In this document: positions 8,088 through 60,487 of the stretch, one piece after another | Layout of the letters: every line of letters starts with the position of its first letter | Numbering within the stretch: position 1 is the stretch's first letter | Assembly: GCA_964650515.1 (NCBI GenBank) | Contig: CAZYUB010000012.1 | Location: 1,944 to 65,943 of the forward strand | Source: an uncultured Planctomycetia bacterium | GTDB taxonomy: Bacteria; Omnitrophota; Gorgyraeia; Pluralincolimonadales; Pluralincolimonadaceae | Length of the DNA stretch: 64,000 bases | Direction: 5' to 3' | The notes under the pieces: model-generated | What the model was told of the DNA's origin: nothing | Databases searched by the model: none | The model's input: the letters and a program-made list of their open reading frames with translations, nothing else | Position numbers and translations under genes: made by a program

Positions 8088-8121
8088 GTCGACGGGGAAC
8101 ACTACATATAGTATTTTTTGC

Positions 8122-13445: not shown

Positions 13446-14141
13446 ATGGGTGATGGTGGACAGGCAGTACAGATCATACTCGATACCTGGAGCCAGGTAT
13501 GGGGTAATTTAGCATTATACCTGTCGAAGATAATCGTCGCGTTGATCGTATTCATTGTCGGCATAATAATCGCGAAGATTATCGAAAAGCTTATCGTTCA
13601 GGTCCTTAAGGTTGCGCGGTTCGACGTCTTATCTGAAAAGGCGGGGATAGCCAGCATACTCGCAAAAGGCGAGATCAAGCACACCCTGTCGGAGCTCATA
13701 GGCATTGTCTTCTATTGGCTCATGGCGTTGGTTGTTGTTATCATCACGCTGAATCTCGTTAGCCCGAGCCCGGAAGTCATGGCCGGAAGCTTCCTTGATG
13801 AAGCCGTAAAGTACGCAGGAAAAGTAATACTATCGATATTTGTCCTGGTCCTTGGCCTCTTCTTTGCCGCCCTGATAGGTTCGGTGGTAAGGACGACGGC
13901 GTCTAACGCGGGCATAGCTACCGCGAAGAACCTCGGCCAGATCGCCCAGACCGTCATCATAGTCATAACGGTCTTGACAGTGCTTCCTATGTTAGGCGTC
14001 CGCACATTCATTCTTGACATGGCTGTAGTCGTTACCCTGGCTGCAACCGGATTGGCCCTCGGCCTCGCATTCGGCCTGGGATCCAAGGAAATCGCAGGCA
14101 AGATGATGTCGGAGATCGTCGACAAATGGAAGAGGAAATAA
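13446..14141 (+). CDS. Polytopic membrane protein with 'conserved TM helix'-type repeats (MscS-associated family)
   Basis: 231 aa, about 5-6 TM. AGGAGGGG ribosome-binding site. Internal duplicated hydrophobic modules. Confidence 0.45.
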   Translation: MGDGGQAVQIILDTWSQVWGNLALYLSKIIVALIVFIVGIIIAKIIEKLIVQVLKVARFDVLSEKAGIASILAKGEIKHTLSELIGIVFYWLMALVVVIITLNLVSPSPEVMAGSFLDEAVKYAGKVILSIFVLVLGLFFAALIGSVVRTTASNAGIATAKNLGQIAQTVIIVITVLTVLPMLGVRTFILDMAVVVTLAATGLALGLAFGLGSKEIAGKMMSEIVDKWKRK

Positions 14142-14192
14142 GTCGGGAGGGACTCGTAATTAAAGTTGGATAGGTTCAACTAGCAGTATAAA

Positions 14193-14231
14193 TGAAGGGA
14201 CTTCTAAACGGGGAAGTCCCTTCATTTTTTT
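14193..14231 (+). terminator. Rho-independent terminator
   Basis: Stem TGAAGGGACTTC/GAAGTCCCTTCA (12 bp) followed by TTTTTTT. Confidence 0.75.
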
Positions 14232-14250
14232 ATACCTCGGGAAGATATTT

Positions 14251-15291
14251 ATGGCAAATATTGTGGAGAAACATGTGACGGGACACAAAGCCTCGCTTCG
14301 GCGGGACCTTGTAGTGGGCTTGACCTATGACGTCAAGCCGGACTATGTATTGAAAAAAGGCGACCCCGAAGACGCGAATGCCGAGTTCGACCACCCCGAT
14401 ACTATAGAGGTAATAAAGGACGCGATAGAGTCCGGCGGGCACAAAGTAGTAAAGATAGGCAATGTAAGGAACCTGCTCAAGAGGATAAAGGGACTCGACG
14501 TAGATATTGTCTTCAACATAGCGGAAGGCGTTACCGGGAGGAACAGGGAGTCAGAGATACCCGTCATACTCGAGATGGCGGGGATACCGTTCGTCGGAGC
14601 CGACGGCCTCACGCTCGGCCTAACGCTCGATAAGGTGATGGCAAAGAAAGTGCTCATATCGGAAGGCGTCCCGACGCCTTCCTTTTTCCAGATATCCGAT
14701 ATAAGGAACGTAGACGGGGCGGGGATAGGCTTCCCGCTCATAGTCAAGCCTAAGCAGGAGGGCTCGAGCAAGGGCATCAGCGACAAGTCGATCGTGCATA
14801 ACAGGCGCGACCTCATCAAACAGGCCGACTGGGTCATACGCACGTACAAACAACCGGCGCTCGTGGAGAGTTTCATAACCGGTTCGGAGTTCACGGTCCC
14901 GGTGGTCGGCAACGATGATCCCGAGGCATTGCCGACGGTGCAGATAAGCATAGACGGAAAGACGAACCTCGGTGACCTCTGCTATACTTTCTCGAGGATA
15001 ACTTCGAACACGCTGAACTATGTGTGCCCGGCAAGGATAACAAGGTCCCTGGACAATAAGTTAAAGGACATGGCGCTCAGGGCCTACAAGGCCGTTGAGT
15101 GCCGCGATTTCGGGAGGGTGGACTTCAGGGTAGATAAGCACGGCAATCCTTATGTGCTCGAGATCAATCCCCTGCCGTCATTGTCCACGGAAGACGTTTT
15201 CATGGTCATAACAAGGCAGATGAAGACAACGTACAACAAACTGATAAACAGGATACTCGACTACGCACTGGAAAGGTACGGTATAAGATAA
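14251..15291 (+). CDS. ATP-grasp ligase of the D-Ala-D-Ala ligase (Ddl) family, paralog 1
   Basis: 346 aa with DIVFNIAEG, PLIVKPKQEGSSKG and EINPLPSL blocks typical of Ddl-like ATP-grasp enzymes. Confidence 0.8.
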   Translation: MANIVEKHVTGHKASLRRDLVVGLTYDVKPDYVLKKGDPEDANAEFDHPDTIEVIKDAIESGGHKVVKIGNVRNLLKRIKGLDVDIVFNIAEGVTGRNRESEIPVILEMAGIPFVGADGLTLGLTLDKVMAKKVLISEGVPTPSFFQISDIRNVDGAGIGFPLIVKPKQEGSSKGISDKSIVHNRRDLIKQADWVIRTYKQPALVESFITGSEFTVPVVGNDDPEALPTVQISIDGKTNLGDLCYTFSRITSNTLNYVCPARITRSLDNKLKDMALRAYKAVECRDFGRVDFRVDKHGNPYVLEINPLPSLSTEDVFMVITRQMKTTYNKLINRILDYALERYGIR

Positions 15292-15292
15292 G

Positions 15293-16342
15293 ATGGGCCT
15301 CAAGGTGGCTTTGACATACAATTTGAAGAGGAAGATAGACGATGCCGGGCTCCCGGATGATTATTATTCCGAATTCGACAGCAAGGAGACGATAGAGGCG
15401 ATCGCCTCCGGCCTGCGTTCGGGCGGTAACGAGGTCTTCCTCGTCGAAGCGGACAAGGGGCTGCTTAACTGGTTCCAGTCGAACAAAGTGGATATAGTAT
15501 TCAACATCGCGGAAGGCATGAACGGCGAATCGAGGGAGTCGCAGGTGCCCGCGATACTGGATTTTCTCGGCATACCTTATAGCGGGTCGGGCGTGCTGGC
15601 GCTGGGCATCTCGCTGAATAAGGCGCTTACTAAGAAACTGTTCGAGCAGTCGGGCATACCGACGCCAAAATGCAGGCTTATAAGCGACCCGGCCGATATC
15701 TCGGATGCCGGGTTAAGGTATCCTCTCATAGTCAAGCCGAACAGGGAGGGTTCCGGGAAAGGCATAACGATAACAAGCGTAGTGCGCAATAAGGCGGAAT
15801 TAGAGAGGGAGGTCTCGAAGACCTTCCGAGTATACAGGCAGGAGATACTAGTCGAGGAGTTCATTGAAGGCAAGGAACTGACCGTGGGCATCCTCGGCAA
15901 CTACCCGCCGGTGACGCTGCCGATACTTGAGATAGATTTCTCCAATTGCCGCGCGTCGGGCGAATTTTTCTATACATGGAAGGTAAAGGAATTCGAGAAG
16001 GAGGTCGAAGACAGCAAGGGCCTGAGCCCGTTATGGCATTGCCCGGCGAGGATAACGGCCGCGGAGGCCGCGCTGGTCAAGGAGACCGCCATCAAGGCAT
16101 TCAACGTGCTGGGCTGCGTCGACCTGTCACGAGTGGATATAATGCTCGATAAGAAGGGCGTGCCTTACGTTCTTGAGGTCAATCCGCTGCCTGGGCTCGA
16201 CCCGGTAGATTCGAATTTTCCGTTCATCGGGAAATGCGCGGGCCTCGATTATCCCGCGCTTATGAACAGGATACTTGAAACAGCCGTGGAGAGGCATACA
16301 AAAAACGGCAACCTTGCCCTACAGGAAAGGAGCTTACGTTGA
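15293..16342 (+). CDS. ATP-grasp ligase of the D-Ala-D-Ala ligase family, paralog 2
   Basis: 349 aa, colinear with paralog 1 (DIVFNIAEG, PLIVKPNREGSGKG, EVNPLPGL); starts 1 nt after the upstream stop. Confidence 0.8.
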   Translation: MGLKVALTYNLKRKIDDAGLPDDYYSEFDSKETIEAIASGLRSGGNEVFLVEADKGLLNWFQSNKVDIVFNIAEGMNGESRESQVPAILDFLGIPYSGSGVLALGISLNKALTKKLFEQSGIPTPKCRLISDPADISDAGLRYPLIVKPNREGSGKGITITSVVRNKAELEREVSKTFRVYRQEILVEEFIEGKELTVGILGNYPPVTLPILEIDFSNCRASGEFFYTWKVKEFEKEVEDSKGLSPLWHCPARITAAEAALVKETAIKAFNVLGCVDLSRVDIMLDKKGVPYVLEVNPLPGLDPVDSNFPFIGKCAGLDYPALMNRILETAVERHTKNGNLALQERSLR

Positions 16343-17559
16343 TTACTTCCGCTGGTTCCATAGCCGAGCACTGGAAGGACGTTCCGGAGAGCGACTGGGA
16401 GGATTGGCACTGGCAGATCAAGAACAGGATAATGACCTATGATGGCCTGAAAGAAGTGCTGAAACTAATGCCGTCGGAAGAGATCGGCGTAAAGAGGAGC
16501 AAGGGAAGGCTGCTGATGGCGATAACCCCCTACTGGCTCTCGCTAATAGATACGATGAGGCCCACATGCCCGATAAGGAGGCAATGCATACCGACATCGG
16601 AAGAGTTCGAGGTCTCACAGAACGACATGGAAGACCCGTGCGGAGAGGACAAGGATTCGCCGGTGCCGGGGCTCGTGCACAGGTACCCGGACAGGGTGCT
16701 GCTGCTCGTCACGGAGAAATGCGCGATGTACTGCCGCCATTGCACGAGGCGCAGGCTCGTCGGGTCGGAAGCGCACCTGACAAGCCCGCAGAATTTCGAG
16801 AAGGCCTACGATTACATAAGGTCGAACCGCAGGATACGCGACGTGCTGATATCAGGCGGCGACCCGCTGATGCTTCCCGACGAGACGCTCGAGGAGATAC
16901 TAAGCAGCCTCAGGGCGATACCGAACGTCGAGTTCATACGCCTCGGGACGAGGATGCCTGTCACGGTCCCGATGAGGGTCACCGAGAACCTCGTATCGAT
17001 GTTCAAGAAATACGGCCCTATATGGGTCTCGCTGCATTTCAACCATCCGAAGGAGATAACGAAGCGCTGCAAGAAGGCGTGCGACATGCTCTCGGAATCC
17101 GGCATCCCGCTCGGCAGCCAATCCGTGCTGCTGAAGGGCGTCAACGATAGGCCGTCGACGATGAGGAGGCTCATGCATGAGCTGCTGAAAGTACGCGTGC
17201 GCCCGTATTACATATACCAGTGCGACCCCGCGAAGGGCATCAGCCATTTCAGGACGCCGATCGCGACAGGCATAAATATAATGGAGAAGCTACGCGGCCA
17301 TACCTCGGGCTACGCAGTCCCGACCTATGTCGTGGACGCGCCGGGAGGGGGCGGGAAGATACCCGTCGCTCCGAATTACGTGATATCGCAGCAGAAGGGC
17401 GCTTTCACGCTGAGGAATTACGAGGGGCAGATGTTCACTTATTACGAGCCCGCGGAGGATAACGAGGTCACGAGGCTCGTGCCGGCGCACGGGAAGCAGG
17501 CGCAGAAGGCAGTATCGAAGGAAGCCAAACCGTCCGAATCGAAGACGGCTGCCGCTTGA
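16339..17559 (+). CDS. kamA: Lysine 2,3-aminomutase (KamA/EpmB family radical SAM enzyme)
   Basis: Radical SAM CxxxCxxC (CAMYCRHCTRRR) and downstream ISGGDPL, with typical KamA N-terminal WQ motifs. Overlaps the upstream ATP-grasp gene by 4 nt. Confidence 0.85.
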   Translation: MITSAGSIAEHWKDVPESDWEDWHWQIKNRIMTYDGLKEVLKLMPSEEIGVKRSKGRLLMAITPYWLSLIDTMRPTCPIRRQCIPTSEEFEVSQNDMEDPCGEDKDSPVPGLVHRYPDRVLLLVTEKCAMYCRHCTRRRLVGSEAHLTSPQNFEKAYDYIRSNRRIRDVLISGGDPLMLPDETLEEILSSLRAIPNVEFIRLGTRMPVTVPMRVTENLVSMFKKYGPIWVSLHFNHPKEITKRCKKACDMLSESGIPLGSQSVLLKGVNDRPSTMRRLMHELLKVRVRPYYIYQCDPAKGISHFRTPIATGINIMEKLRGHTSGYAVPTYVVDAPGGGGKIPVAPNYVISQQKGAFTLRNYEGQMFTYYEPAEDNEVTRLVPAHGKQAQKAVSKEAKPSESKTAAA

Positions 17560-17564
17560 AATAT

Positions 17565-18137
17565 ATGCTTAAAAGGATACCGGCCTATTCGCTCGTCGCT
17601 TTCGCCGCCGCCATTCTGACGTGCGGATGCGGCCCCCGCCAGAGCACGGAAGACCTGAAGTCGGCGCTTGTGGATTTCGACCCTTCCTTCAGGGAGATCC
17701 TCGACAAAAAAACCCAGGTGGATACGCAAATAGAGACCCTCAAGGGCGAATTCAGGACGAAGCAGGGGGATATTAACTCGAGGATAATGGAACTCGAGGA
17801 GGAGCTCAAGGCCGCGAGGAAAGAGCTGTATACCAAGACGCGCGAGCTTTCGGCCCAGCTCGATCCCGAGAGGCAGAAGATAGACCTTAAGGTGGAAGAC
17901 CTTAAGATGAAGCTGGCCGGCAAGGAGGCGCGCGCGGCCTCGACGAAGAACTCGATAAAGAACCAGAAAGGCCTGCTCGATAACAAGAAACTGAACCTCT
18001 CCTCACCGGAACAGGCAGAACTCCAGAGGAATATAGAGAAAGCAAAGCAGGAACTTACCCCGTTGGAGGACGAGATAACCGCCCTCCGCCGCGAAATACA
18101 GCTCTACAGGCAGGAATCCAACCTCTTAAGATACTGA
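17565..18137 (+). CDS. Coiled-coil lipoprotein (hypothetical)
   Basis: Signal peptide plus LTCGCG lipobox, remainder heptad-rich. The track's start at 17556 is TTG; ATG 17565 is preferred. Confidence 0.5.
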   Translation: MLKRIPAYSLVAFAAAILTCGCGPRQSTEDLKSALVDFDPSFREILDKKTQVDTQIETLKGEFRTKQGDINSRIMELEEELKAARKELYTKTRELSAQLDPERQKIDLKVEDLKMKLAGKEARAASTKNSIKNQKGLLDNKKLNLSSPEQAELQRNIEKAKQELTPLEDEITALRREIQLYRQESNLLRY

Positions 18138-34573: not shown

Positions 34574-36106
34574 ATGCTTGCAAAAGTGGAGAGCAGGAGC
34601 GTACTCGGTATAGAGTCGAGGAAGGTCGACGTCGAGGTTGACATAGCGGGCGGGCTGCCTTCCTTTACCATAGTGGGACTTGCGGACACGGCCGTCAAGG
34701 AGAGCAGGGACAGGGTCATATCGGCGATAAAGAATTCCGGGTTCAAATTCCCTCCGAAGAGGATAACCATAAACCTCGCGCCGGCGGACCTAAGGAAAGA
34801 GGGTGCCAGCTATGACCTCGCCATCGCCCTCGGGATACTATCGGCTAACGGAGATCTCGGGCAGGGCTTGACCGAGGGCATGGTCTTTTGCGGTGAGCTT
34901 TCACTCGACGGCAGGGTAAGGCCGATAAACGGCGTGCTCCCGATCGCGATGGGGTTACCCGCCGGCGGCTGTAAGGGCCTTGTAATACCTGAAGGGAATT
35001 CCGGGGAGGCCGGCATTGTCGGAGGGCTTCCGGTATACCCGGTCGGCAGCCTCAAAGAAGCCGCGGGGTTCCTGAACGGGTCAGTAAAGGTCAGCCCGGT
35101 AAAGGCCTCCGGGCATTGCGGGGATATATCCGTTCAAAACCCCGATATCGACTTCAGCGATGTAAAGGGGCAATGGCACGTGAAGAGGGGGCTCGAGGTC
35201 GCCGCGGCGGGAGGGCACAATGTGCTTATGATCGGGCCGCCGGGTTCCGGGAAGACGATGCTCGCGCAGAGGCTTATAACGATATTGCCCGTCCTGTCGG
35301 CGGGTGAGATGCTCGAGACGACGAAGATACACAGCATATCCGGCTTGCTGAACGGCGGGAATTACCTTGTCTCGCTGAGGCCTTTCAGGATGCCGCACCA
35401 TACGGTGTCTTATGCAGGCCTCGTAGGGGGAGGGAACAGGCTCAAGCCCGGGGAGATAAGTTTGGCGCATAATGGCGTGCTGTTCCTCGATGAGCTTCCG
35501 GAATTCAGGAGGGACGCGCTTGAGGCGCTTCGCCAGCCCCTCGAAGGAGGTGAGGTCGTCATCTCGAGGGCCGAGCTAAGCCTCAAATATCCGGCGAAAT
35601 TCATGCTGGTAGCGGCGATGAACCCGTGCCCGTGCGGTTATTTTACGGACCCGAAGAAAGAATGCCATTGCACGCCGCCGGTCATACAGAGGTACCTGTC
35701 AAAAGTGTCGGGACCGCTTCTCGACAGGATAGACATACACCTCGAGGTGCCTTCGCTGAAATACAAGGAACTCTCGGGCAGGAGCCGCGGAGAAAGTTCC
35801 GAGGCCATAAGGGCAAGGGTCAATAAGGCAAGGGCGGCCCAGAAAAAGCGCTATGATGGCCTTTCGATATACTGCAACGCGCACCTGGGCTCAAAAGATA
35901 CCGAAAGGTTTTGTTGTATAGACAAGGAGGCCTCGGAGCTTCTTAAACTTGCCATCCTGGAGCTGGGTTTGAGCGCGAGGGGATACGATAAGGTCTTGAA
36001 GATAGCGAGGACGATAGCCGACCTTGCGGGTTCAGGGATGATATCAGCCGAGCACATATCGGAAGCGATAAACTACAGGAGCTTAGACAGGGATCTGGGG
36101 TTCTGA
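34574..36106 (+). CDS. comM: Mg-chelatase-like AAA+ ATPase YifB/ComM
   Basis: Lon-like N-terminus, Walker A GPPGSGKTM, and the C-terminal ChlI region. Confidence 0.9.
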   Translation: MLAKVESRSVLGIESRKVDVEVDIAGGLPSFTIVGLADTAVKESRDRVISAIKNSGFKFPPKRITINLAPADLRKEGASYDLAIALGILSANGDLGQGLTEGMVFCGELSLDGRVRPINGVLPIAMGLPAGGCKGLVIPEGNSGEAGIVGGLPVYPVGSLKEAAGFLNGSVKVSPVKASGHCGDISVQNPDIDFSDVKGQWHVKRGLEVAAAGGHNVLMIGPPGSGKTMLAQRLITILPVLSAGEMLETTKIHSISGLLNGGNYLVSLRPFRMPHHTVSYAGLVGGGNRLKPGEISLAHNGVLFLDELPEFRRDALEALRQPLEGGEVVISRAELSLKYPAKFMLVAAMNPCPCGYFTDPKKECHCTPPVIQRYLSKVSGPLLDRIDIHLEVPSLKYKELSGRSRGESSEAIRARVNKARAAQKKRYDGLSIYCNAHLGSKDTERFCCIDKEASELLKLAILELGLSARGYDKVLKIARTIADLAGSGMISAEHISEAINYRSLDRDLGF

Positions 36107-39100
36107 AGGGCGCGTGCTCCGCGACAGTCCGAGCACAGCCCTTTTTATCGCGAAGACCAGGCGTGACAGGGCCATCGCGGCCAGTATTCCCGCTAATATG
36201 ATCGATGTCAGGAAGAGGGAGTCCCTGTTATGGGAGCGCCTGAAAAGCATCAGCAGGGTCTCCGCCTCTTCGGCTTTTGATATGAGCACTTCCGGGGCAA
36301 GCCGAAGCTCCTCGAGGTCCTGTTTCGCCTTCACGGATATCTTCTCGAGGTCAGCGTAGTAACGCCTTCCGGACTTCAACCCGGCTATCTCGGCATCGAG
36401 GCGGGAAATATACCTCTTCAATGCGGCTATCCTTGCGTTATATTCGTCGTTGCCGGAATATATGGGCATGAACAATCCGATCCTCCTGACGGAGCCGTTG
36501 GCGGCCAGGTCCGCTACGATGTCCTTCAGGACAAAATTCCGCGGGTTTTTCAGCTTCTCCCTGTCGAACCATACCTGCATATTCTTGAGCAGTTTGCGGC
36601 TCATCCTTTCGGTCTCGTCGAGGTTCTCGTTGAACAGCCTCTTATACGCCATCTTTATGATATAGTTCGTCCACCACGACGACTGGGCCCTCTGGTAGTT
36701 GGTCTTCTGCCTCATGAGGAATTTCCCGTACCTGCCCGTCAGGTAGACGTTGACCGCCTCATTGAACTCGACCGCGGAATCCTTCTCGGGCTGCAGGCCG
36801 ATTATCTCTCGGTATGATGACGATACGTAATCCATATGCGATACGATATCCGCCATGACGGAAGGGGGGATGTTCTCGAAGGTCATCAACAGCGGCCACA
36901 GGAATTCAAGGGAGTCCGCGACCTTTTCGTCGTGCGACCTTATCTCGGCCATCCTTGAAGCTATAATGGCGTCGTTCTTGACTACGCGGCTGTTCGAGAG
37001 GAATTTGTGCAGGAAATCATCCGCGGACCGGGACCCTTTGAACGCTCGCGGGTTCCGGTAAATGCTCAACAGCCTGAAAGTGACGGAATCCATCTTTTCC
37101 TGCCATTTCTGCAGGTCATCGAAGGTCTTTGCGGCCATGAGGCCGCCGAGGTCATTGTCCTTTACTGACTTCAATATCCTGAAGAAGGCGCCAAGGTCTT
37201 TCTCGGGCAGGCCGAGGTCGTACGCCCTCTGCAGGTGGTACCATATGATGTTGACGATAATATCATTGTCGCTCACCTTCGGCACCGCGGCGAAACCGCT
37301 GTCCTTGAGGCCGTAGATATCCGTTATGACGCCGATGTCGTTAGCGTTCACGCCTTTTATCTTCCCGGACATCATCTCGAGCTCCTTCGGGAAATAGGCG
37401 CCGGCCGCGTATTTATAGATATCCTGTATCGGCTTCAGGTACCCGTGCCGCAGCTCATAGAACGTGAGCTTCTTCTTCATGGCGAAGACCGCCATCCATT
37501 CGGCGTTGCCCTGCTTCAGCAGCTCGAGGTCGGGATATTCCCGCGCCGCGGACCTTATAGAACGCCTCAGCTGCATCGCCCTTATGATATCCGGCTCCGT
37601 GACCGCGACCCCGAGGTTGCTAAGTATGCTTATGCCCGTCTGCAGCGTCGTATAATGCAGGACCCTGCCGTCGGTTATGCGTATGCCGGTCTTCTCCTCG
37701 ACCTCGTCCCTGATGCCGGATTCGATGCCTTCGGGTATCCTGGCAGGCCAGAACTCGTTTATCTGGGCGAGGAAAGCGGCCTTTTCAACGTCTCGGTGGT
37801 CCTTGAAGGCGAGGGAGTTAATCGCTATCTTTTCTGTTATGCCGGGCACGAAGAACGGGAGGTTCGGGTAATTCACGGGAAGCTCTTTCCAGAAATCCTT
37901 GAGCACCGACGCGAGCCTTTGCAGCTCCTCCGCGCCGAGCTCACGCCCGAAATCGAGCTTGAAATCCTCCCTGAGCCGGGCGAGGGTCATATAGGCGTTG
38001 AACCTCTTTATGGCCGGTGCCTCATTCTCGACGGTGTCCACGATGACCCTCAGCACGCGCCCGCCGTCTTTTTCGGTCCTCGGGTCGCGGCTCAGTTTTC
38101 GTTTGAGTATCTGTAGACGGAACGCGTTCTCGTATTCGAAGCCGGCGGGGAGGGGGAGGTCCTCGTTGAACCAGCCGTTTATCGCGGCGAATACCGGCGA
38201 GTAGTATTTGAAGTAGCCGCCGATCCCGTCCCAGCCCATGGACGCCCTGTTCTTTTCATATTCGAGCATCAGGTAGCCGCTTATGTTCCACCATGGTATC
38301 CTGCCGTATCCCGATGACATTCCAGCGCCGTAGAATTCCATGAATTCGGAAGCGAGGGCTTTCGGGCCGGCTTTTATGGAGTTCGCCTCAGCCTCGATAA
38401 CGAGTTTTGCGAGGAATTCGTAGGCGATGTCGAGCTTCATCTTTTCAGGGGTCTGGTCCGCGAGTATGCGGACCTGGCTTTCGGCATATCCCATATCGCG
38501 GTAAGTGGCCTCTACAACGCCCGATACGAACCCGGCCGGAAGCTCGAGTTTTTGTTTGTGCCAGGCCTCAGACATCCTGAATTCGTCATCGAAATAATCG
38601 AACAGCTCGGCTATGCCGCTGAAACCGGCCTTGTAATATATCAGCGTAAGGTAGCCGCTCTTTTCCCACCACGGCTTCTCGCTCATTCCCGAGGAGACGC
38701 CCGTCTCGTATATCTGCATGAACTTCGAGGCGAACTCGGCCGGGTCTACATCTATGCGGTTTGCCTTCGCCTCAAGCATGAGGGAGGAGAGCCAGATGTA
38801 GCCGGTCATCTCTTTTCCCGCTTCCGATTGTTTCTCGATGCGCTTTTCAATCCTCGAGATAATGCCCGCGTTCTCGCGGGGGGAGAGGCGGGGGTCCTCG
38901 AATATGCCCTTTTGCCTGAGCTCGTTGTTGAACATTATCTCGTTTATGATCTTCTCGTCCAGGATTACGCCCTGCTTCTTCAGCCCGTCGGCCTCCTCAA
39001 GCTGTGGGCCGAGGTAATCCATGTAATCGTCCATGTTCCAGCCGTATCTTTCGGCCATGACGTAATAGGACACCGCGAGGTATTCGCCGATGCCTTTGGC

Positions 39101-42100
39101 CCTGATGCCGTCCTTGAGGCCGGGATATTTGTCGCCGACCCTTTCCCATATCCCGACAAGGTAGCCCCTGAGCTTATCGGCGGTCTCTTTTATCACGTAG
39201 TTCGAGGGCTTGCCTTCGTTACCGAGTGTCTGCCATGTGTCGAGCGCCATGCGGTAATCCGACATGATGCATATGAGCTTGATGTCGCTCCTTTCGTATT
39301 CGACCTTCTTGACACCTTTCTTCCTGTAATCATAGAGGAACCTGTCCCTGTTTACCTTATACATCTCGTTCGGGACGGAGGTCTTATACCACGCGTAATT
39401 CACATAATCGAAACCGAGGTATTCCATTACCTCTTCCGTGGACATGTTGTTCTTCATGCCGGTCACTATAAGGTATTCGAGTTTTCCCTGCTTGCCCGCG
39501 ACAACGGTCTCGACGATGCCGAGGATCGTGCCGTATGGGATCTGGGTGGCCGGGATTATCTTCAGCACCGGGATGTAGAAGGTGACCGTGCCGAGCAGCT
39601 GGAAAGCGTTCTTAGCGGGTTCCGGCACGAGCTGGAACGGCTTCAGCGGGACGGACGGGTATTTTTTGCGGAACTGCGGCATCTTGTCGTATTCGGCGAA
39701 GAACTTCCTGAGGTTCTCCTCGTTCACGTCAAGCCCGGAATAATACAGCGAGAGGATGCCCCTTTGGAGGTATTCGTAGCGCTTCCAGATGCCCCGTTTC
39801 CTGGCGAAATCCGCGTTCCAGTATTTCTTCGTCTCTTCCCACTTGAAGACCTCCGCGATATCCTTCATCGACATCCCCGTCTCGCGGCTCGTCTCGAACC
39901 AGAACTGCCCGGTAAGCGGGTCAAGCACGTTGAACCACGGGTATTCCTTGCCGTAACGCGCTATCATCCCGAGCCCTTCGGCCCTGTCGAGCGCCATTAT
40001 AGCCATTCCCGCTATGTTGAACTTCAGGGAAAGCGCGATCTTGGCCCCCGCGAGCGCGGTTGAGGCGAGCAGGCGCCGTTTTCCCATCTTGTCCGACGCG
40101 TCGAAAAAATTCCTGAAAGCGGTAAGGTCCCCGAGCTCCGGCTCCTCGAGAGGGGATACGGCCTCACGCACGACAGGGGGAACCGCGTCCACGGCCGAGG
40201 GCTTCAATATCGGTATTGCCACCGAAAGCTTCTCCTGCACCGGAAGCACTTCGGCAAGCAGTTTCGTCTTTCCCTCGCGCGACTTCAACACCGGGGCCAG
40301 CCTGCTGTCTACGACCTTATCCGGTATGTAAAACTCTATCTTCTTGAGGTCGGCGCGCATCTTGTCTAGCAGGACCTCTTCCTGCGCGGAATAGCTGAAC
40401 TTATCTCTTGATTCCGGCAGGACGAGTTTTATCATGTCGTGCTTGTTCTGGCTCGGAAGCCCCCTAAGGGCGGAGAACATTATGACAAGCAGAAGGGAAG
40501 CGGAAACTATTATATAGGCCTTTTTCAGCTTTTCGCGGGGCGTGAGGCTGCGCGGGTCCAGGTCCCTGACCTTGCCGATGGCCGCGATGGCATAGCGGCC
40601 GAACATCAGCGAGCCCGCCCACGGCAGGATCCCGAATATCCCGAACACGGTCATCGGCGCTATCCCCGTAATGATATAAATGGCCGCTATGGACGATATT
40701 ATCAAGCCCATCTTTTGGGCTTCCTCGATCTTTATGTCCCTGAACTCGTTTTTAGTTATCCTGCCTTCGAGCTCCATCAAGGAGAGGGTGCTCGAGGTCT
40801 TCCATTCGGGGACTTTGTTGGCCTTCTCGGATTTATATATCGAGTATGAAAGCAGGGGTTTTATGACGGTCAACTGCAGGGACGATACGGTCGTCTCTAT
40901 CGTCTGCAGGACACTGTCGAAGAACTGGTCCACGAGCTCTATAGCGAAGGCCCCCGGGCGGATCGGGCGCCCTTCGGCTCGGGACCTGCGGAATATGTAC
41001 CTTACGGGGTCTATGAACCTGTGCACGAATATGATCCCGAAGAACGAGAGCGCCAATGTCAGGATATAAGCGTTTGAATTGGTCGGCACTATCAGGATAA
41101 AGGGAAATATCCAAAGCATGCACATCAGCATGATAAAGCAGAACAGCATCGGGTCGGAAAGCAGCCTTCCGATCGCCCAGCTCAGGTGCCACTGGTGGTA
41201 ATATGTCAGCAGTTTCCTGTAGGAGATCAGCGTCCTGATCGCCTGGAAATCTCCGATAAGCCACCTGACGTCGCGTATGATGTATGTGACGAAATGGAGC
41301 TGGTCGCGTTCGCCGACCGCGACGGAGTTATTATAGAAATTCGCCGTATATTTTACTATTTCGTCCATCCCCGTTTCTTTCAGGTGATGGAATTTCCTGG
41401 CGAAGCGGTACTCGCCGGTGTTGATATCGAAATGGTGCAGCCATACATCCCCGGCCGCGTCCTTCTCCAGTTTTATGAACCTTGTCGTATCGGCAAGGTC
41501 TATGCGCAGCACGACGGCGCCGAACTTCTCGAGGACCCTGCTTACGATATACCTCCTCGCGCCGAGCAACCCCTCGCAGTTCCTGCTGAATATCGATTCC
41601 TGCCAGTCGTGCGAAAGGACTTTAGCGGGTGAAAGCGTCTCCGGCTTGAAGACCCTTTCGTAGTATACCTTTGTCCTCGTGAAGCCCTTCCCGAAGAAAG
41701 CGCGCTCCTTGCCGTAGATGCCCGAGACGACCTTCATGTTTATCTCGTTCTCTATGTCGCGCTCGTTCTTCATTATCTTCCAGTAGACGCTCTCCTTGGC
41801 CGCGCCGCCGAGGTAGGGGGGAGTTATGACGATGTGCGGCTGCGCTATGACTATATGGCTGTTGTCGGGATGCATCATTATGGCGAGCGCCTTCTCGAGC
41901 TCGCCAGGATAGAGCTCGTTCTTATCGTCCATGATGACGCAGAACTCCGAGATCCTCTCCTGGTCGATCTCGACATCTTCGCCGCGCAGTATTCGTTCCG
42001 CGGCCTCGTCAGGGGTATATTGTTTTATGCCGAGGGCCTTCACGAGGTCCGTCGACCATATCCTGCAAAGCAGCGGTTTGTTCCTGTTTTGCGTGAACTC

Positions 42101-43609
42101 AAAACCCTCATCGGTGAACAGGTACGGCTTCGCCTGCCCGGTGTTCATGAAATGCATCAGGTTGCCTATGCCGCCGACCTTTCCGGCGAACCCGCCGGCT
42201 TTTATCATGCCGAGTTTCGTGTTGTCGAACCATTCGCTCTTCGACCTGTTCATGTAAAGGAAATCGAGGTTAGGGTAGGAATATTCCGACGAGAATTCCC
42301 GCAGACGCTTGACCTCGTATTCTATTATCTTGTCGTTCTTCGTGTCGGACCAGAACGTCATCACGAGCAGGATGCGGTTGCCGAACGTCTCGAGGGTAGG
42401 CCTCAGCGCGTCTATCGTCTTCCTGAAATAAAATATAGCTATCTCTGCGTCGGATTCGTTGTCGCTCCTCTTGGCCGTTATATAGGATATCTTCAGGGGT
42501 TTCTCTTCGGTGTAGTTCGCGTTTATGTATTCTCCGAGCTCGGGCAGCATCTTGTGGCCAGGCACGCTGACCATAAGGCTTACTATGAACAGGGATATCT
42601 TATGCGAGGGCTGCCAGGATATGTAATAGGTGATGCCGAAGCAGAGGGCTATCCAGATGAAAGTGATGGGAGGCATGTGCGGCAGGCCCGGGAAGCCGTA
42701 GACGGTAAGCGTCGGGACAACGGCGACGAGCGAAGCAAAGAAAAGCCTGAAGGAACGCGTGAGGCCTTCATAGAGGCGCGCCTCGGGCCCTTTGACGAAC
42801 GGGGGAGGGATCAGCGTGTCCTTGTTCTTGCGCAGCTGGTCCATCAGCAGGACCGCTTTGCGGTAACGGCCAAAATCCCTCAGGTTCTTTACGGCGTCCT
42901 TATATTCGGGATAGTTATCGAGCTCCCTCGTGAATTTTCCGAGCAGGCTCAGCTCGTGGTCCCCGAGCCGGTGGCCTATGATCCTGCGGTAGAGCAGCTC
43001 CGGGGGCACGACAAGTTTTTCGGCAAGCGCGGTAACGGCCTCCTTGATCTTTGCCCCGTCGTTTGCCCTGACCGCTTCCTTGAGATCGGAGAAGATCTGC
43101 GAGTAATCGGTAAAATCGCTTATGCTGCTGGCTTTCCTTATGTCTTCCTCGAAGACGGACATGAAATCGTGCAGCAGTTTCGACTGCATCTCAAGGCGTT
43201 TCTGCCTGAGCGTAGAGCCGAGGGCGGCCTTGCGTTTTTCGAGGGAAGAGATCTCGCGAAGCACGGCGGCGTCCGTATTCCTGTCATCGGACTGGTCGTT
43301 TTCCACGGACCTGTAGAGGCGCTCGAGCCTCTTATCTATAGAGCGCGTCTCCCGCCCGTAGCTTCTGGCGAGCCATTTCGTATCGCGGTATATGATCCCG
43401 GCGAGGGCCTTCTTGACGATTATCTCGGACATCACGAAATTATGCTGTCCGGGGGTCGCGTACCTGAACCTGCCCCTCCTGAGGTGCCCGAACCTTTCGA
43501 GCAGGCGGGTAATGGAAAAAGGCCAGAGGTACCCGGGGCGCGGCAGCTCCTGCAGGAAATCCGTCAGCTGCTTCGATATCCTGGAGAGTTCGCTCCGGTC
43601 GTTCGGCAT
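36083..43609 (-). CDS. Giant (2508 aa) multi-pass membrane protein with an OpgH/MdoH-like GT2 glucosyltransferase domain and a ~1400-aa C-terminal soluble region with internal repeats
   Basis: Uninterrupted 7.5-kb ORF. TM clusters at aa ~290-350, 820-865, 965-1047 and 2462-2482. The GT2-like core at aa ~380-800 has a VIMDDKNE putative DxD and an OpgH-like block VLSHDWQESIF (cf. E. coli OpgH ILSHDFVEA; recalled, not aligned). The ATG abuts the ybaK-like TAA. Confidence 0.8.
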   Translation of the reverse strand: MPNDRSELSRISKQLTDFLQELPRPGYLWPFSITRLLERFGHLRRGRFRYATPGQHNFVMSEIIVKKALAGIIYRDTKWLARSYGRETRSIDKRLERLYRSVENDQSDDRNTDAAVLREISSLEKRKAALGSTLRQKRLEMQSKLLHDFMSVFEEDIRKASSISDFTDYSQIFSDLKEAVRANDGAKIKEAVTALAEKLVVPPELLYRRIIGHRLGDHELSLLGKFTRELDNYPEYKDAVKNLRDFGRYRKAVLLMDQLRKNKDTLIPPPFVKGPEARLYEGLTRSFRLFFASLVAVVPTLTVYGFPGLPHMPPITFIWIALCFGITYYISWQPSHKISLFIVSLMVSVPGHKMLPELGEYINANYTEEKPLKISYITAKRSDNESDAEIAIFYFRKTIDALRPTLETFGNRILLVMTFWSDTKNDKIIEYEVKRLREFSSEYSYPNLDFLYMNRSKSEWFDNTKLGMIKAGGFAGKVGGIGNLMHFMNTGQAKPYLFTDEGFEFTQNRNKPLLCRIWSTDLVKALGIKQYTPDEAAERILRGEDVEIDQERISEFCVIMDDKNELYPGELEKALAIMMHPDNSHIVIAQPHIVITPPYLGGAAKESVYWKIMKNERDIENEINMKVVSGIYGKERAFFGKGFTRTKVYYERVFKPETLSPAKVLSHDWQESIFSRNCEGLLGARRYIVSRVLEKFGAVVLRIDLADTTRFIKLEKDAAGDVWLHHFDINTGEYRFARKFHHLKETGMDEIVKYTANFYNNSVAVGERDQLHFVTYIIRDVRWLIGDFQAIRTLISYRKLLTYYHQWHLSWAIGRLLSDPMLFCFIMLMCMLWIFPFILIVPTNSNAYILTLALSFFGIIFVHRFIDPVRYIFRRSRAEGRPIRPGAFAIELVDQFFDSVLQTIETTVSSLQLTVIKPLLSYSIYKSEKANKVPEWKTSSTLSLMELEGRITKNEFRDIKIEEAQKMGLIISSIAAIYIITGIAPMTVFGIFGILPWAGSLMFGRYAIAAIGKVRDLDPRSLTPREKLKKAYIIVSASLLLVIMFSALRGLPSQNKHDMIKLVLPESRDKFSYSAQEEVLLDKMRADLKKIEFYIPDKVVDSRLAPVLKSREGKTKLLAEVLPVQEKLSVAIPILKPSAVDAVPPVVREAVSPLEEPELGDLTAFRNFFDASDKMGKRRLLASTALAGAKIALSLKFNIAGMAIMALDRAEGLGMIARYGKEYPWFNVLDPLTGQFWFETSRETGMSMKDIAEVFKWEETKKYWNADFARKRGIWKRYEYLQRGILSLYYSGLDVNEENLRKFFAEYDKMPQFRKKYPSVPLKPFQLVPEPAKNAFQLLGTVTFYIPVLKIIPATQIPYGTILGIVETVVAGKQGKLEYLIVTGMKNNMSTEEVMEYLGFDYVNYAWYKTSVPNEMYKVNRDRFLYDYRKKGVKKVEYERSDIKLICIMSDYRMALDTWQTLGNEGKPSNYVIKETADKLRGYLVGIWERVGDKYPGLKDGIRAKGIGEYLAVSYYVMAERYGWNMDDYMDYLGPQLEEADGLKKQGVILDEKIINEIMFNNELRQKGIFEDPRLSPRENAGIISRIEKRIEKQSEAGKEMTGYIWLSSLMLEAKANRIDVDPAEFASKFMQIYETGVSSGMSEKPWWEKSGYLTLIYYKAGFSGIAELFDYFDDEFRMSEAWHKQKLELPAGFVSGVVEATYRDMGYAESQVRILADQTPEKMKLDIAYEFLAKLVIEAEANSIKAGPKALASEFMEFYGAGMSSGYGRIPWWNISGYLMLEYEKNRASMGWDGIGGYFKYYSPVFAAINGWFNEDLPLPAGFEYENAFRLQILKRKLSRDPRTEKDGGRVLRVIVDTVENEAPAIKRFNAYMTLARLREDFKLDFGRELGAEELQRLASVLKDFWKELPVNYPNLPFFVPGITEKIAINSLAFKDHRDVEKAAFLAQINEFWPARIPEGIESGIRDEVEEKTGIRITDGRVLHYTTLQTGISILSNLGVAVTEPDIIRAMQLRRSIRSAAREYPDLELLKQGNAEWMAVFAMKKKLTFYELRHGYLKPIQDIYKYAAGAYFPKELEMMSGKIKGVNANDIGVITDIYGLKDSGFAAVPKVSDNDIIVNIIWYHLQRAYDLGLPEKDLGAFFRILKSVKDNDLGGLMAAKTFDDLQKWQEKMDSVTFRLLSIYRNPRAFKGSRSADDFLHKFLSNSRVVKNDAIIASRMAEIRSHDEKVADSLEFLWPLLMTFENIPPSVMADIVSHMDYVSSSYREIIGLQPEKDSAVEFNEAVNVYLTGRYGKFLMRQKTNYQRAQSSWWTNYIIKMAYKRLFNENLDETERMSRKLLKNMQVWFDREKLKNPRNFVLKDIVADLAANGSVRRIGLFMPIYSGNDEYNARIAALKRYISRLDAEIAGLKSGRRYYADLEKISVKAKQDLEELRLAPEVLISKAEEAETLLMLFRRSHNRDSLFLTSIILAGILAAMALSRLVFAIKRAVLGLSRSTRPSEPQIPV

Positions 43610-46227: not shown

Positions 46228-46307
46228 ATGGGTATCCGGAACTCAACTGATTATACCGATTATCTTCGATTTTTTCAATGAAATATGTTATATTATTGAT
46301 ACCTAAA

Positions 46308-46760
46308 ATGGCGGATGAAACGGTCGCGACAAACAGGGAGGCCCGGCACAATTATCACATCCTCGAGTCCTTTGAGGCGGGCATCGCCCTGCAGGGGGCG
46401 GAGGTCAAGTCCTTGCGGGACAAGAAGGCCAACTTGAACGACAGTTTCGCCAGGATAGACGAAGGCGAATTGTTCATATTTAACATGCATATATCTCCGT
46501 ATCCCCAGGCGGGCAGGTTCGCTCCCGAGCCTAAGAGAAAACGGAAACTGCTGGTGCACAAGGCCGAGATAAGGAAGATAGAAGGCCGCCTGGCACAGAA
46601 GGGCTTGACGCTTATCCCCCTTAAGGTCTATTTCACGAGGGGGCGCGCGAAGGTCGAAGTGGCGCTCGCGCAGGGCAAGAAGCTTTACGACAAACGCGAG
46701 GATATCAAACGCCGCGATTCCGACAGGGAACTGCGGCGCGAGATTCGCGGGAAAGAATAG
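46308..46760 (+). CDS. smpB: SsrA-binding protein SmpB
   Basis: The canonical start is MADETVATNREARHNYHILE. The upstream ATG at 46278 lies in the AT-rich promoter region. Followed immediately by tmRNA. Confidence 0.88.
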   Translation: MADETVATNREARHNYHILESFEAGIALQGAEVKSLRDKKANLNDSFARIDEGELFIFNMHISPYPQAGRFAPEPKRKRKLLVHKAEIRKIEGRLAQKGLTLIPLKVYFTRGRAKVEVALAQGKKLYDKREDIKRRDSDRELRREIRGKE

Positions 46761-56594: not shown

Positions 56595-56625
56595 TAAATT
56601 CCCGCTATCGGTGTTTATGAATTAT

Positions 56626-56899: not shown

Positions 56900-56924
56900 G
56901 TAATTCCGTTCTCTCTGGATAATG

Positions 56925-60471: not shown

Positions 60472-60487
60472 CAAAAGGGAGGCTGAA

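What the first reader, a model, noticed from the sequence alone, without database searches (positions are those of the whole stretch)
14251..17559. Operon of two paralogous Ddl-like ATP-grasp ligases plus lysine 2,3-aminomutase
The three genes are tightly coupled (1-nt gap and 4-nt overlap) and preceded by a strong terminator. KamA makes beta-lysine, and Ddl-family ATP-grasp enzymes ligate amino or carboxyl groups to form peptide bonds. Together they suggest ATP-dependent synthesis of a beta-lysine-containing dipeptide, oligomer or conjugate: a compatible solute, a cell-wall or EF-P-type modification, or a small natural product. Known beta-lysine routes use acetyltransferases (AblB/YodP), the EpmA aaRS paralog, or NRPSs rather than ATP-grasp pairs.
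Basis: inference. Interest (0 to 1): 0.55.

Follow-up and report, generated by a model that had tools for sequence, protein, structure and literature searches.

The report
Conserved beta-lysine ATP-grasp ligase operon
A tightly coupled three-gene cassette, conserved across the Omnitrophota, encodes an enzyme that makes the unusual amino acid beta-lysine plus two ligases related to, but distinct from, the cell-wall enzyme D-Ala-D-Ala ligase; it probably builds a beta-lysine peptide that nobody has yet described.

Summary
G1 (14251-15291), G2 (15293-16342) and KamA (16339-17559) are joined by a 1-nt gap and a 4-nt overlap, and a -25.7 kcal/mol hairpin plus T-run precedes them. KamA is a genuine lysine 2,3-aminomutase by sequence: it passes the AblA equivalog cutoff, matches 2A5H at E 5e-147, and keeps the three cluster cysteines, the PLP lysine and both aspartates that bind the lysine epsilon-amine. 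G1 and G2 have the Ddl fold and an intact catalytic core. They fall below every curated Ddl/Van cutoff, differ from Ddl at the substrate positions, and also occur in an archaeon. G1-G2-KamA is kept, still coupled, in every evaluable Omnitrophota locus of about 80. The G2-type ligase also sits beside KamA in most of the ten contexts checked outside the phylum (Anaerolineae, a Bathyarchaeia contig, unnamed metagenome contigs). There its partner is a different second ligase plus a GNAT, or permeases. No paper describing the module was found. The best reading is ATP-dependent synthesis of a small beta-lysine di- or tripeptide, possibly a solute-like metabolite; the product is unknown. The upstream hairpin is specific to this operon and looks like a leader or attenuator element, not just a terminator. 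Verdict: a new variant of a known kind, of moderate interest.

The parts
14190..14237 (+). Hairpin (16-bp stem, core GGGACTTC/GAAGTCCC) plus T7, ending 14 nt before the G1 ATG. It may be the terminator of the upstream gene, a leader/attenuator element of the ligase operon, or both.
   Evidence: dG -25.7, z -5.3. Conserved in L004-L010 more strongly than its flanks. An equivalent hairpin + T-run sits upstream of G1 in 54/74 loci whatever the upstream gene. The main-clade stem motif is found only upstream of G1 in 855 kb. Single copy in the window.
14251..15291 (+). G1: Ddl-fold ATP-grasp ligase, 'type B', an Omnitrophota-specific clade.
   Evidence: Pfam PF07478, E 7e-35. Below the Ddl cutoffs. 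The catalytic K97, K144, E180, E187, R255, D257, E270 and N272 equivalents are kept. The omega-loop Lys-Tyr is replaced or deleted, and S281-L282 becomes D-V. Homologs at 62-93% identity are all from Omnitrophota. Monophyletic in 30/30 bootstraps.
15293..16342 (+). G2: Ddl-fold ATP-grasp ligase, 'type A', the type found beside KamA in Omnitrophota and in most contexts checked outside the phylum.
   Evidence: AF2 pLDDT 88, pTM 0.88. Foldseek top hits are Ddl, TM 0.77, 22-29% identity. H63->E, Y216->E and L282->N, with insertions in the N-terminal loop and omega loop. Type A lies beside KamA in L082-L091.
16339..17559 (+). KamA/AblA-type lysine 2,3-aminomutase (radical SAM, PLP).
   Evidence: TIGR03820 536 bits vs cutoff 525. 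2A5H E 5e-147, with CAMYCRHC, the D293/D330 equivalents and the PLP lysine kept. The same residues are kept in 82/82 linked homologs. A LAM_C domain is present.
17556..18137 (+). 193-aa predicted lipoprotein with a coiled coil. Its TTG start overlaps the KamA stop. Possibly co-transcribed; probably not part of the chemistry.
   Evidence: Its cluster was tallied in 25 loci, but that cluster also holds alternative-frame ORFs lying within KamA; tblastn found it directly downstream of KamA only in the window's clade and a few others (L004, L006-L011, L015, L052, L071) and displaced in L020.
13446..14141 (+). Small MscS-like membrane protein just upstream. Context only.
   Evidence: PF05552 and NF033912, below cutoff. 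It neighbours the trio in 19 loci, and in L020 and L042 it lies downstream of KamA instead.

Best explanation
The cassette is a self-contained pathway for a small beta-lysine-containing amide or peptide. KamA converts L-lysine to (3S)-beta-lysine (shown at sequence level only). G2, the type-A ligase that accompanies KamA across phyla, uses ATP to form an acyl phosphate and condenses beta-lysine with a common cellular partner: another amino acid, or a second beta-lysine by analogy with Ddl's two-identical-substrate reaction (inferred). G1, the Omnitrophota-specific second ligase, has a different acceptor pocket. It adds a further residue or caps the remaining amine, giving a di- or tripeptide (inferred). 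In Anaerolineae and Bathyarchaeia this second step is taken by a different ligase (type C) plus a GNAT. The most likely role is a soluble, charge-balanced cytoplasmic metabolite of the compatible-solute kind, doing by peptide-bond formation what AblB does by acetylation in N-epsilon-acetyl-beta-lysine synthesis. Expression appears to be gated by an operon-specific hairpin in the 5' leader. I give about 0.75 to the general claim that the ligases condense KamA-made beta-lysine into an amide product. I give 0.45 to the full statement with a soluble solute-like product.
For: KamA passes the AblA equivalog cutoff and keeps every lysine-specific and cofactor residue. Both ligases keep the ATP/Mg/catalytic set but differ from Ddl at the substrate positions, and the family-specific insertions fall in the two loops that close the Ddl substrate site. 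The trio is invariant and translationally coupled while both flanks vary. KamA with a type-A ligase recurs outside the phylum. L084 has the pair alone. L089 has it flanked by two amino-acid permeases. L083, L085, L091 and L082 have it with a GNAT and a type-C ligase. In L085 and L091 an OmpR-type regulator and an MshEN-domain protein lie upstream. Neighbours linked to solute or ion homeostasis recur: an MscS-like protein (19 loci, on either side of the trio), AA/CCC-type permeases, and CBS, TrkA_C and diadenylate cyclase genes. Metallopeptidases or deacylases that could turn the product over also recur: M20 ArgE/DapE in 26 loci, M14, and MATCAP. Precedents from my own knowledge: the NAGGN dipeptide osmolyte made by a GNAT + ATP-grasp enzyme, and carnosine synthase, an ATP-grasp that activates a beta-amino acid.
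Against: No product or substrate has been determined, and acceptor identity cannot be read from sequence. The carrier genomes come from groundwater, peat, freshwater lakes and marine biofilms alike (record titles). Phylum-wide retention argues for a core function rather than a salt-specific one. The terminator-like hairpin separates the Msc gene from the trio, so that adjacency may be plain synteny. Lipoprotein genes sit in or next to the cluster (CC193 here, Gmad2/Germane in L085), and GT2 and O-antigen-ligase-like genes lie upstream in some loci, which hints at the envelope. Three type-A loci lack an adjacent KamA. Glu233 (Y216 position) is invariant only within Omnitrophota.
Confidence: 0.45

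Rival explanations
1. Envelope modification. The ligases build a beta-lysine-containing peptide that is attached to murein precursors, a surface polymer or a lipid, for example to add positive charge.
For: The ligases belong to the Ddl family. The CC193 lipoprotein gene overlaps the KamA stop. A Gmad2/Germane lipoprotein gene lies between the two ligases in L085/L086. GT2 and O-antigen-ligase-like genes lie upstream in about a dozen loci. The organism has murein genes, murI and Amidase_3.
Against: No Mur ligase, flippase or transferase is conserved with the trio. The module occurs on an archaeal contig carrying aRF1. The flanks vary freely. The scores are below the Ddl and Van cutoffs.
Confidence: 0.12
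2. Secreted specialised metabolite: a small beta-lysine peptide antibiotic or signalling molecule, as in negamycin or the streptothricin-type compounds.
For: The negamycin cluster is reported to combine beta-lysine formation with an ATP-grasp enzyme. L-amino-acid-ligase natural products are known (own knowledge). Omnitrophota are thought to depend on hosts (own knowledge).
Against: The trio is present in hundreds of species-level genomes as a syntenic core locus next to purH-folC-mnmE, not as a patchy island. No tailoring, resistance or export genes are conserved with it.
Confidence: 0.1
3. Catabolic protecting-group route. An ATP-dependent ligation masks an amine of beta-lysine so that it can be transaminated and degraded, analogous to gamma-glutamylation of putrescine or to the acetyl route of the B. 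subtilis yodP-kamA operon.
For: A class-III aminotransferase and amino-acid permeases lie near KamA + type A in L084 and L089. GNATs are present in Anaerolineae and Bathyarchaeia. An M20 deacylase is nearby in 26 Omnitrophota loci.
Against: No aminotransferase, CoA-transferase or thiolase is conserved with the Omnitrophota trio. Spending two ATP-dependent ligations is costly for fermentation.
Confidence: 0.08
4. Protein modification. Beta-lysine is ligated onto EF-P, a ribosomal protein or a LysW-like carrier protein.
For: Weak TTL-family hits for both ligases. EF-G-like and YchF genes follow KamA in many loci. The GNATs are RimI-like. LysW-type zinc-ribbon genes lie near type A/C ligases in L092 and L093.
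Against: KamA scores 241 bits against the EpmB cutoff of 369, and it has the LAM C-terminal domain that YjeK/EpmB lacks (PMC2821294). No efp or epmA is adjacent. The translation-factor neighbours are absent in the window's clade and outside the phylum. Characterised Ddl-family enzymes act on small molecules (own knowledge). The LysW-like proteins lack the usual acidic C-terminus.
Confidence: 0.07
5. Ordinary cell-wall D-Ala-D-Ala ligases that merely happen to sit next to kamA.
For: Best PDB and HMM hits are Ddl. No other ddl is present in the window.
Against: Below all curated cutoffs. Substrate residues H63, Y216 and L282 are changed. Adjacency to KamA is invariant and coupled. G2-type and C-type relatives occur in an archaeon.
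Confidence: 0.02

Closest known systems
AblA/AblB pathway for N-epsilon-acetyl-beta-lysine (methanogens, Chlorobi)
   Same: An AblA-type lysine 2,3-aminomutase passes the same equivalog model. A short cassette converts lysine to a beta-lysine derivative. The likely logic of neutralising an amine is shared.
   Different: The window and the Omnitrophota loci have no AblB-type acetyltransferase. Two ATP-grasp ligases take its place. The GNATs in the Anaerolineae and Bathyarchaeia versions are short and RimI-like, not AblB-like.
D-alanine--D-alanine ligase (DdlA/DdlB) and VanA-type ligases
   Same: Same three-domain ATP-grasp fold (TM 0.77) and the same catalytic Lys/Glu/Arg/Asp/Glu/Asn set.
   Different: Only 22-33% identity. 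Below curated cutoffs. H63->E, E68->R, a changed omega loop and changed S281/L282 positions. Extra N-terminal and omega-loop insertions. No mur/dcw context. G2-type and C-type relatives present in an archaeon.
ATP-grasp L-amino-acid ligases and carnosine synthase (BacD/YwfE, BL00235, RizA, CARNS1)
   Same: These are stand-alone ATP-grasp enzymes that make free di- or oligopeptides. Carnosine synthase activates a beta-amino acid (own knowledge). BL00235 (3VOT) is the only non-Ddl, non-PurD PDB hit.
   Different: The sequence relationship is remote (E 1e-6 to 1e-8). None is known to use beta-lysine or to be coupled to an aminomutase.
NAGGN synthesis (Ngg: GNAT + ATP-grasp; AsnO)
   Same: A non-ribosomal dipeptide osmolyte made by an acetyltransferase plus an ATP-grasp ligase (own knowledge). 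This resembles the GNAT + KamA + two-ligase clusters of L083, L085 and L091.
   Different: Ngg is a fused enzyme of a different ATP-grasp family that uses glutamine. No amidotransferase is present here.
EpmA/EpmB (YjeA/YjeK) beta-lysylation of EF-P
   Same: A KamA-family enzyme supplies beta-lysine to an ATP-dependent ligase.
   Different: EpmB is a truncated clade lacking LAM_C that clusters with efp (PMC2821294). The ligase there is a LysRS paralog. This KamA fails the EpmB cutoff.
Negamycin biosynthetic cluster (Kitasatospora)
   Same: It co-localises beta-lysine formation with an ATP-grasp enzyme for amide formation (10.1101/2025.05.27.656397; KamA2 in 10.1101/2025.07.31.667836).
   Different: It is an actinomycete specialised-metabolite cluster with a KinJ-type N-N bond enzyme, a hydroxylase and a methyltransferase. 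None of those is present here.

Membership tests
Lysine 2,3-aminomutase (KamA/AblA) | Curated equivalog HMM TIGR03820 at or above its cutoff, and better than the glutamate, arginine and EpmB models | tested here: met
   536 bits vs cutoff 525.4. Glu-AM 468 vs 650, Arg-AM 410 vs 600, EpmB 241 vs 369.
Lysine 2,3-aminomutase (KamA/AblA) | CxxxCxxC radical-SAM cluster motif and the PLP-binding lysine | tested here: met
   CAMYCRHC at 128-135 and K340 in GGGGK. Kept in 82/82 linked homologs.
Lysine 2,3-aminomutase (KamA/AblA) | Two aspartates (D293 and D330 of 2A5H) that bind the lysine epsilon-ammonium; replaced in glutamate 2,3-aminomutase (own knowledge) | tested here: met
   D296 and D333 align to D293 and D330. 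82/82 conserved.
Lysine 2,3-aminomutase (KamA/AblA) | C-terminal LAM domain, absent from YjeK/EpmB | tested here: met
   PF12544, E 1.6e-27, residues 315-381. The distinction is stated in PMC2821294.
Lysine 2,3-aminomutase (KamA/AblA) | Conversion of L-lysine to beta-lysine | not testable with these tools
   Needs an anaerobic enzyme assay.
D-Ala-D-Ala ligase (Ddl, EC 6.3.2.4) | ATP-grasp Ddl fold with the catalytic residues K97, K144, E180, E187, R255, D257, E270 and N272 | tested here: met
   AF2 + Foldseek, TM 0.77 to Ddl structures. The residues are invariant in types A, B and C.
D-Ala-D-Ala ligase (Ddl, EC 6.3.2.4) | Score at or above the curated Ddl family cutoffs (NF002378, TIGR01205) | tested here: not met
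   G1 scores 173.5 and 148.7; G2 scores 195.7 and 167.3. The cutoffs are 243 and 245.65.
D-Ala-D-Ala ligase (Ddl, EC 6.3.2.4) | Substrate-site residues His63, Tyr216 (omega loop) and Ser281-Leu282 | tested here: not met
   H63->E in all types. Y216->E in G2, deleted or Ile in G1. L282->N in G2. S281-L282->D-V in G1.
D-Ala-D-Ala ligase (Ddl, EC 6.3.2.4) | Murein context (dcw/mur neighbourhood; confined to murein-containing organisms) | tested here: not met
   No mur genes in any of about 90 loci. Type A and C ligases lie on a Bathyarchaeia contig with aRF1.
VanA/B/C-type D-Ala-D-Lac / D-Ala-D-Ser ligases | Curated model cutoffs | tested here: not met
   Best score 137 bits (VanG) vs cutoff 495; the others score 60-131 vs cutoffs of 520-775.
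AblA/AblB N-epsilon-acetyl-beta-lysine pathway | AblB-type beta-lysine N-acetyltransferase encoded with AblA | tested here: not met
   No GNAT in the window neighbourhood or in the Omnitrophota loci. The GNATs in L082 and L083 hit only RimI-type models weakly.
EpmA/EpmB EF-P beta-lysylation | EpmB-type truncated aminomutase, with epmA or efp in the neighbourhood | tested here: not met
Stand-alone ATP-grasp amino-acid (peptide) ligases | Intact ATP-grasp catalytic core, no carrier or NRPS domains, and a co-encoded enzyme supplying an unusual amino acid | tested here: met
Stand-alone ATP-grasp amino-acid (peptide) ligases | Formation of a free di- or oligopeptide from free amino acids | not testable with these tools
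   Needs in vitro assays or metabolomics.

The most novel reading that the evidence does not exclude
KamA plus a type-A Ddl-like ligase defines a third, previously unrecognised route for using beta-lysine, alongside acetylation by AblB and EF-P lysylation by EpmA. It would yield a new class of beta-lysine di- or tripeptide that is a core cytoplasmic metabolite of Omnitrophota (A+B version) and of Anaerolineae and Bathyarchaeia (GNAT+A+C version). Its synthesis would be controlled by a dedicated, so far unclassified leader hairpin or attenuator.
Probability: 0.4. Interest if true: 0.7.

Novelty: new variant of a known kind. Interest (0 to 1): 0.55.

Why it matters
Beta-lysine currently has few known fates: acetylation to an osmolyte, lysine fermentation, EF-P modification, and incorporation into a handful of antibiotics. 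This cassette would add an ATP-grasp peptide route. It is not a rarity. It is a syntenic core locus of an entire uncultivated phylum, and its KamA + type-A ligase core also occurs in Chloroflexi and archaea. Identifying the product would assign function to thousands of proteins now annotated as 'D-alanine--D-alanine ligase' or 'ATP-grasp domain protein'. That would correct cell-wall inferences drawn from those annotations. It would also give a chemical marker and a physiological handle for Omnitrophota, and it could supply new beta-amino-acid ligases for biocatalysis. The operon-specific leader hairpin is a candidate new cis-regulatory element.

Tried and rejected
- **Literature:** six full-text searches combining aminomutase, beta-lysine, kamA or ablA with ATP-grasp, D-Ala-D-Ala ligase or Omnitrophota found no description of the module. 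The Iyer et al. 2009 amidoligase survey (PMC3268129) might mention such contexts, but it is not held.
- **Riboswitch upstream:** no Rfam family hit at gathering or permissive thresholds, in the window or in 11 related loci. RNAalifold finds only the hairpin.
- **Leader peptide:** the conserved TTG-AAA-AA in the main-clade leader opens tiny ORFs (MKK*, MEK*, MKKIGM*). These are not conserved in length or sequence, so classical Lys-codon attenuation is unsupported.
- **Glu233 as a universal cation-binding residue:** rejected, because it is invariant only within Omnitrophota.
- **AblB identity of the GNATs:** rejected.
- **M20-PAC2-HAD-ApbE-like genes upstream:** treated as synteny. They are present in only about 27 loci and are separated from G1 by a 200-400-nt leader that carries its own promoter.
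- **Deep relationships among ligase types A, B and C:** a neighbour-joining tree with one Ddl outgroup did not resolve them. A first attempt timed out.
- **afdb50 fold search:** unavailable.


Full report
**1. Observation**

The three ORFs lie exactly where stated: G1 14251-15291 (346 aa), G2 15293-16342 (349 aa) and KamA 16339-17559 (406 aa, TTG start), all on the + strand.

- I read the junctions directly. G1 ends TAA, one G follows, then the ATG of G2. The G2 stop TGA overlaps the KamA TTG, with an AGGAG 6-7 nt upstream.
- G1 and G2 are paralogs: 41% identity, E 4e-82.
- A 16-bp hairpin plus T7 sits at 14190-14237, ending 14 nt before the G1 ATG. Its dG is -25.7 kcal/mol and z is -5.3.
- A fourth ORF (17556-18137) overlaps the KamA stop. 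It encodes a signal/lipobox-like N-terminus followed by a coiled coil.
- No terminator-like site precedes purH, folC and mnmE. The three genes are therefore a coupled block inside a possibly longer transcription unit.
- The window is from an Omnitrophota genome. The best relatives are Omnitrophota MAGs at 84-95% protein identity with the same gene order.

**2. What the proteins are**

KamA:
- It carries Radical_SAM and LAM_C.
- It passes NCBI's AblA equivalog cutoff at 536 vs 525 bits. It fails the glutamate-, arginine- and EpmB-type models.
- It aligns end to end with the Clostridium subterminale enzyme 2A5H (E 5e-147). The alignment keeps CAMYCRHC, the PLP lysine and both aspartates that, from my knowledge of that structure, hold the lysine epsilon-ammonium.
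- All 82 KamA proteins found next to these ligases keep those six residues.
- YjeK/EpmB enzymes lack the C-terminal LAM domain and cluster with efp (PMC2821294). This protein has the domain, and no efp is nearby.

G1 and G2:
- Both hit Dala_Dala_lig_C, and Ddl is their best match among solved structures at E 1e-27 to 1e-32.
- A G2 model built from 24 homologs (pLDDT 88, pTM 0.88) superposes on Ddl structures with TM 0.77 at 22-29% identity.
- Both score well below the curated Ddl subfamily cutoffs (149-196 vs 243-246 bits) and far below every Van-type cutoff.
- Mapping onto E. coli DdlB shows the ATP/Mg/catalytic set unchanged in all clades: K97, K144, E180, E187, R255, D257, E270, N272. Both enzymes therefore look active.
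- The positions that shape the two D-Ala sites differ. H63 becomes Glu everywhere. E68 becomes Arg.
- The omega-loop Lys-Tyr becomes Lys-Glu plus an 8-residue insertion in G2, and is lost in G1.
- S281-L282 becomes S-N in G2 and D-V in G1. G276 becomes Ser in G1.
- The Ddl N-terminal GGxSxE loop is replaced by a longer YNLK...SEFDS segment.
- The two low-confidence parts of the model (residues 11-30 and 230-245) are exactly these family-specific loops.
Residues 24-305 are verified.

**3. Conservation**

The best 80 are nearly all Omnitrophota.
- The few labelled Planctomycetales, Margulisiibacteriota or Deltaproteobacteria share the Omnitrophota synteny and are probably mislabelled.
- In every such locus with enough flank, the order G1-G2-KamA is kept.
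- The coupling is kept too. G1->G2 gaps are -4 to +9 nt in 68 of 79 loci. G2->KamA overlaps by 4-11 nt in 51 of 75.
- All-against-all clustering of neighbouring ORFs shows that only the trio is invariant.
- Upstream one finds a small MscS-like gene, or M20-PAC2-HAD-ApbE-like genes, or GT2/O-antigen-ligase-like genes. Downstream one finds the coiled-coil lipoprotein or EF-G-like + YchF, then purH-folC-mnmE.

**4. Beyond the phylum**

Three ligase types can be told apart.

- **Type A (= G2)** is the partner of KamA in most contexts checked outside the phylum.
  - Anaerolineae: L083, L085/86 and L091.
  - A Bathyarchaeia contig that also carries aRF1: L082.
  - Unnamed metagenome contigs: L084, L087 and L089.
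- **Type B (= G1)** is confined to Omnitrophota.
- **Type C** is a different second ligase. In Anaerolineae and Bathyarchaeia it accompanies KamA and type A together with a short RimI-like GNAT.
  - In L085/86 and L091 an OmpR-type regulator and an MshEN-domain protein lie upstream.
- L084 has only KamA + A. In L089 the pair is flanked by two amino-acid permeases.
- Three type-A loci lack an adjacent KamA. Two of them combine A + C + GNAT with FGase, MATCAP and a GshB/RimK-like ATP-grasp, transporters, CBS proteins and a diadenylate cyclase.
- The evolutionary unit is therefore KamA + type-A ligase, extended in lineage-specific ways.

**5. Mechanism**

- **Shown at sequence level:** a lysine-specific 2,3-aminomutase and two catalytically intact, non-Ddl ATP-grasp ligases, translationally coupled and co-inherited.
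- **Inferred:**
  - KamA supplies beta-lysine.
  - G2 condenses it through an acyl phosphate with a common metabolite, since no other precursor-forming enzyme is conserved. The partner could be a second beta-lysine, by analogy with Ddl.
  - G1, with a distinct acceptor pocket, adds or caps a further position.
- **For a soluble, solute-like product:**
  - The KamA is AblA-type.
  - MscS-like genes, permeases and c-di-AMP/CBS/TrkA_C neighbours recur.
  - GNATs appear in the sister versions.
  - Nearby metallopeptidases (M20, M14, MATCAP) could recycle the product.
  - NAGGN and carnosine are precedents, from my own knowledge.
- **Against a solute-like role:**
  - The carriers come from groundwater, peat, lakes and marine biofilms alike.
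  - The locus is phylum-wide.
  - Lipoprotein genes intrude in two versions of the cluster.
- I give about 0.75 to 'beta-lysine is ligated into a small amide product' and 0.45 to the full solute-like reading.
- Rivals and their probabilities: envelope modification 0.12, secreted metabolite 0.10, catabolic protecting group 0.08, protein modification 0.07, true Ddl 0.02.

**6. The 'terminator'**

- The hairpin is conserved in the window's clade more strongly than its flanks.
- An equivalent hairpin + T-run lies 6-90 nt upstream of G1 in 54 of 74 Omnitrophota loci, whatever the upstream gene.
- In the main clade the stem sequence itself is conserved: (A)AGGGCTC...GAGCCC(TT). That motif occurs 29 times in 855 kb of fetched loci, and every occurrence is within about 290 nt upstream of G1.
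- RNAalifold supports 8 pairs, 6 of them with compensatory changes.
- In at least 31 loci the hairpin closes a 104-130-nt leader. In order, the leader contains:
  - a near-consensus promoter, CTTGACAA-N13-TT(G/A)TGATAAA;
  - a conserved GGAGG and a TAAATTG(A/G)AAAA box;
  - the hairpin;
  - an AU-rich run with no Shine-Dalgarno before the G1 ATG.
- No Rfam family matches.
- In the window's clade the leader is compressed to 109 nt. A TTGGAT-15-TATAAA promoter-like element abuts the hairpin.
- I read the hairpin as an operon-specific regulated terminator or protein-bound leader element. It may double as the terminator of the upstream gene. Its effector is unknown.

**7. Comparison with what is known, and novelty**

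- The aminomutase is a member of the AblA/KamA family; all testable features are met.
- The ligases have the Ddl fold but fail the Ddl membership tests: cutoffs, substrate residues, genomic context and host range.
- Functionally they are closest to stand-alone ATP-grasp amino-acid ligases.
- I found no publication describing a KamA + Ddl-like module.
- The nearest precedent is the negamycin cluster. It combines beta-lysine formation with an ATP-grasp enzyme in a quite different, tailoring-rich context.
- I rate the finding a new variant of a known kind, with interest 0.55. It is a solid, widely distributed and experimentally tractable lead. It is not a conceptual surprise, and the product is still unknown.

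Noticed in passing
window 14142-14250; L017, L023, L026, L038, L040, L044, L049, L057, L061, L064, L065, L068, L074, L075, L077 upstream of G1: The leader of the ligase operon is conserved in many Omnitrophota. It has the promoter CTTGACAA-N13-TTGTGATAAA, GGAGG, TAAATTGRAAAA, a sequence-conserved hairpin GGGCTC/GAGCCC + U-run, then a G1 ATG without a Shine-Dalgarno. No Rfam family matches. The window's clade has only the hairpin (GGGACTTC/GAAGTCCC) and a compressed 109-nt spacer.
   Followed up: partly
L074:4865-4891 and equivalents (promoter spacer); window 8096-8111: The spacer of the main-clade G1 promoter holds the palindrome AAACAATATATTGTGA. This resembles the NrdR-box consensus as I recall it. 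A similar box, ACACTACATATAGTAT, precedes the CTTGACAA promoter of the class II ribonucleotide reductase gene in the window. A possible shared regulator; untested, and absent upstream of G1 in the window itself.
   Followed up: partly
window 36083-43609 (-): A giant 2508-aa ORF with no Pfam match even at E 0.01.
   Followed up: partly
window 56517-64000: Three tRNA genes (56517-56896) are followed by a low-GC stretch (0.43-0.49 vs about 0.55). It encodes a SEC-C-motif protein, a GT2 glycosyltransferase, and a protein with TPR + Peptidase_C39 + DUF6531 + RHS repeats that runs off the window. Possibly an island with a polymorphic-toxin-type gene.
   Followed up: partly
window 46278-47111: An ORF (46278-46760) is immediately followed by tmRNA (46761-47111, 178 bits).
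   Followed up: no
window 53439-56393 (-): A 984-aa AsmA/DUF748/YhdP-like protein, of the outer-membrane lipid-transport type.
   Followed up: no
L092:3673-14586; L093:2733-12072: These probably archaeal loci combine type-A and type-C Ddl-like ligases and a GNAT with a LysW-type zinc-ribbon protein, FGase, a MATCAP-family peptidase and a GshB/RimK-like ATP-grasp. They lie next to CCC-type and TrkA_C transporters, CBS proteins and a DacZ-type diadenylate cyclase. This looks like an amidoligase/peptidase cluster of unknown product that lacks KamA.
   Followed up: partly
L085/L086:10098-11018: A Gmad2/Germane-domain (GerM-like) lipoprotein gene is inserted between the type-A and type-C ligase genes in an Anaerolineae-type cluster.
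   Followed up: no
L064:1486-1644: A 6S RNA (74 bits) lies about 3.4 kb upstream of the ligase operon in one Omnitrophota MAG.
   Followed up: no
L089:1-4622: Upstream of AA_permease-KamA-ligase-AA_permease lie a class-III aminotransferase, a C45 autoproteolytic acyltransferase, an OSBS/N-acylamino-acid-racemase-family enzyme and a ThiS-like protein. This may be a linked amino-acid conversion route.
   Followed up: no
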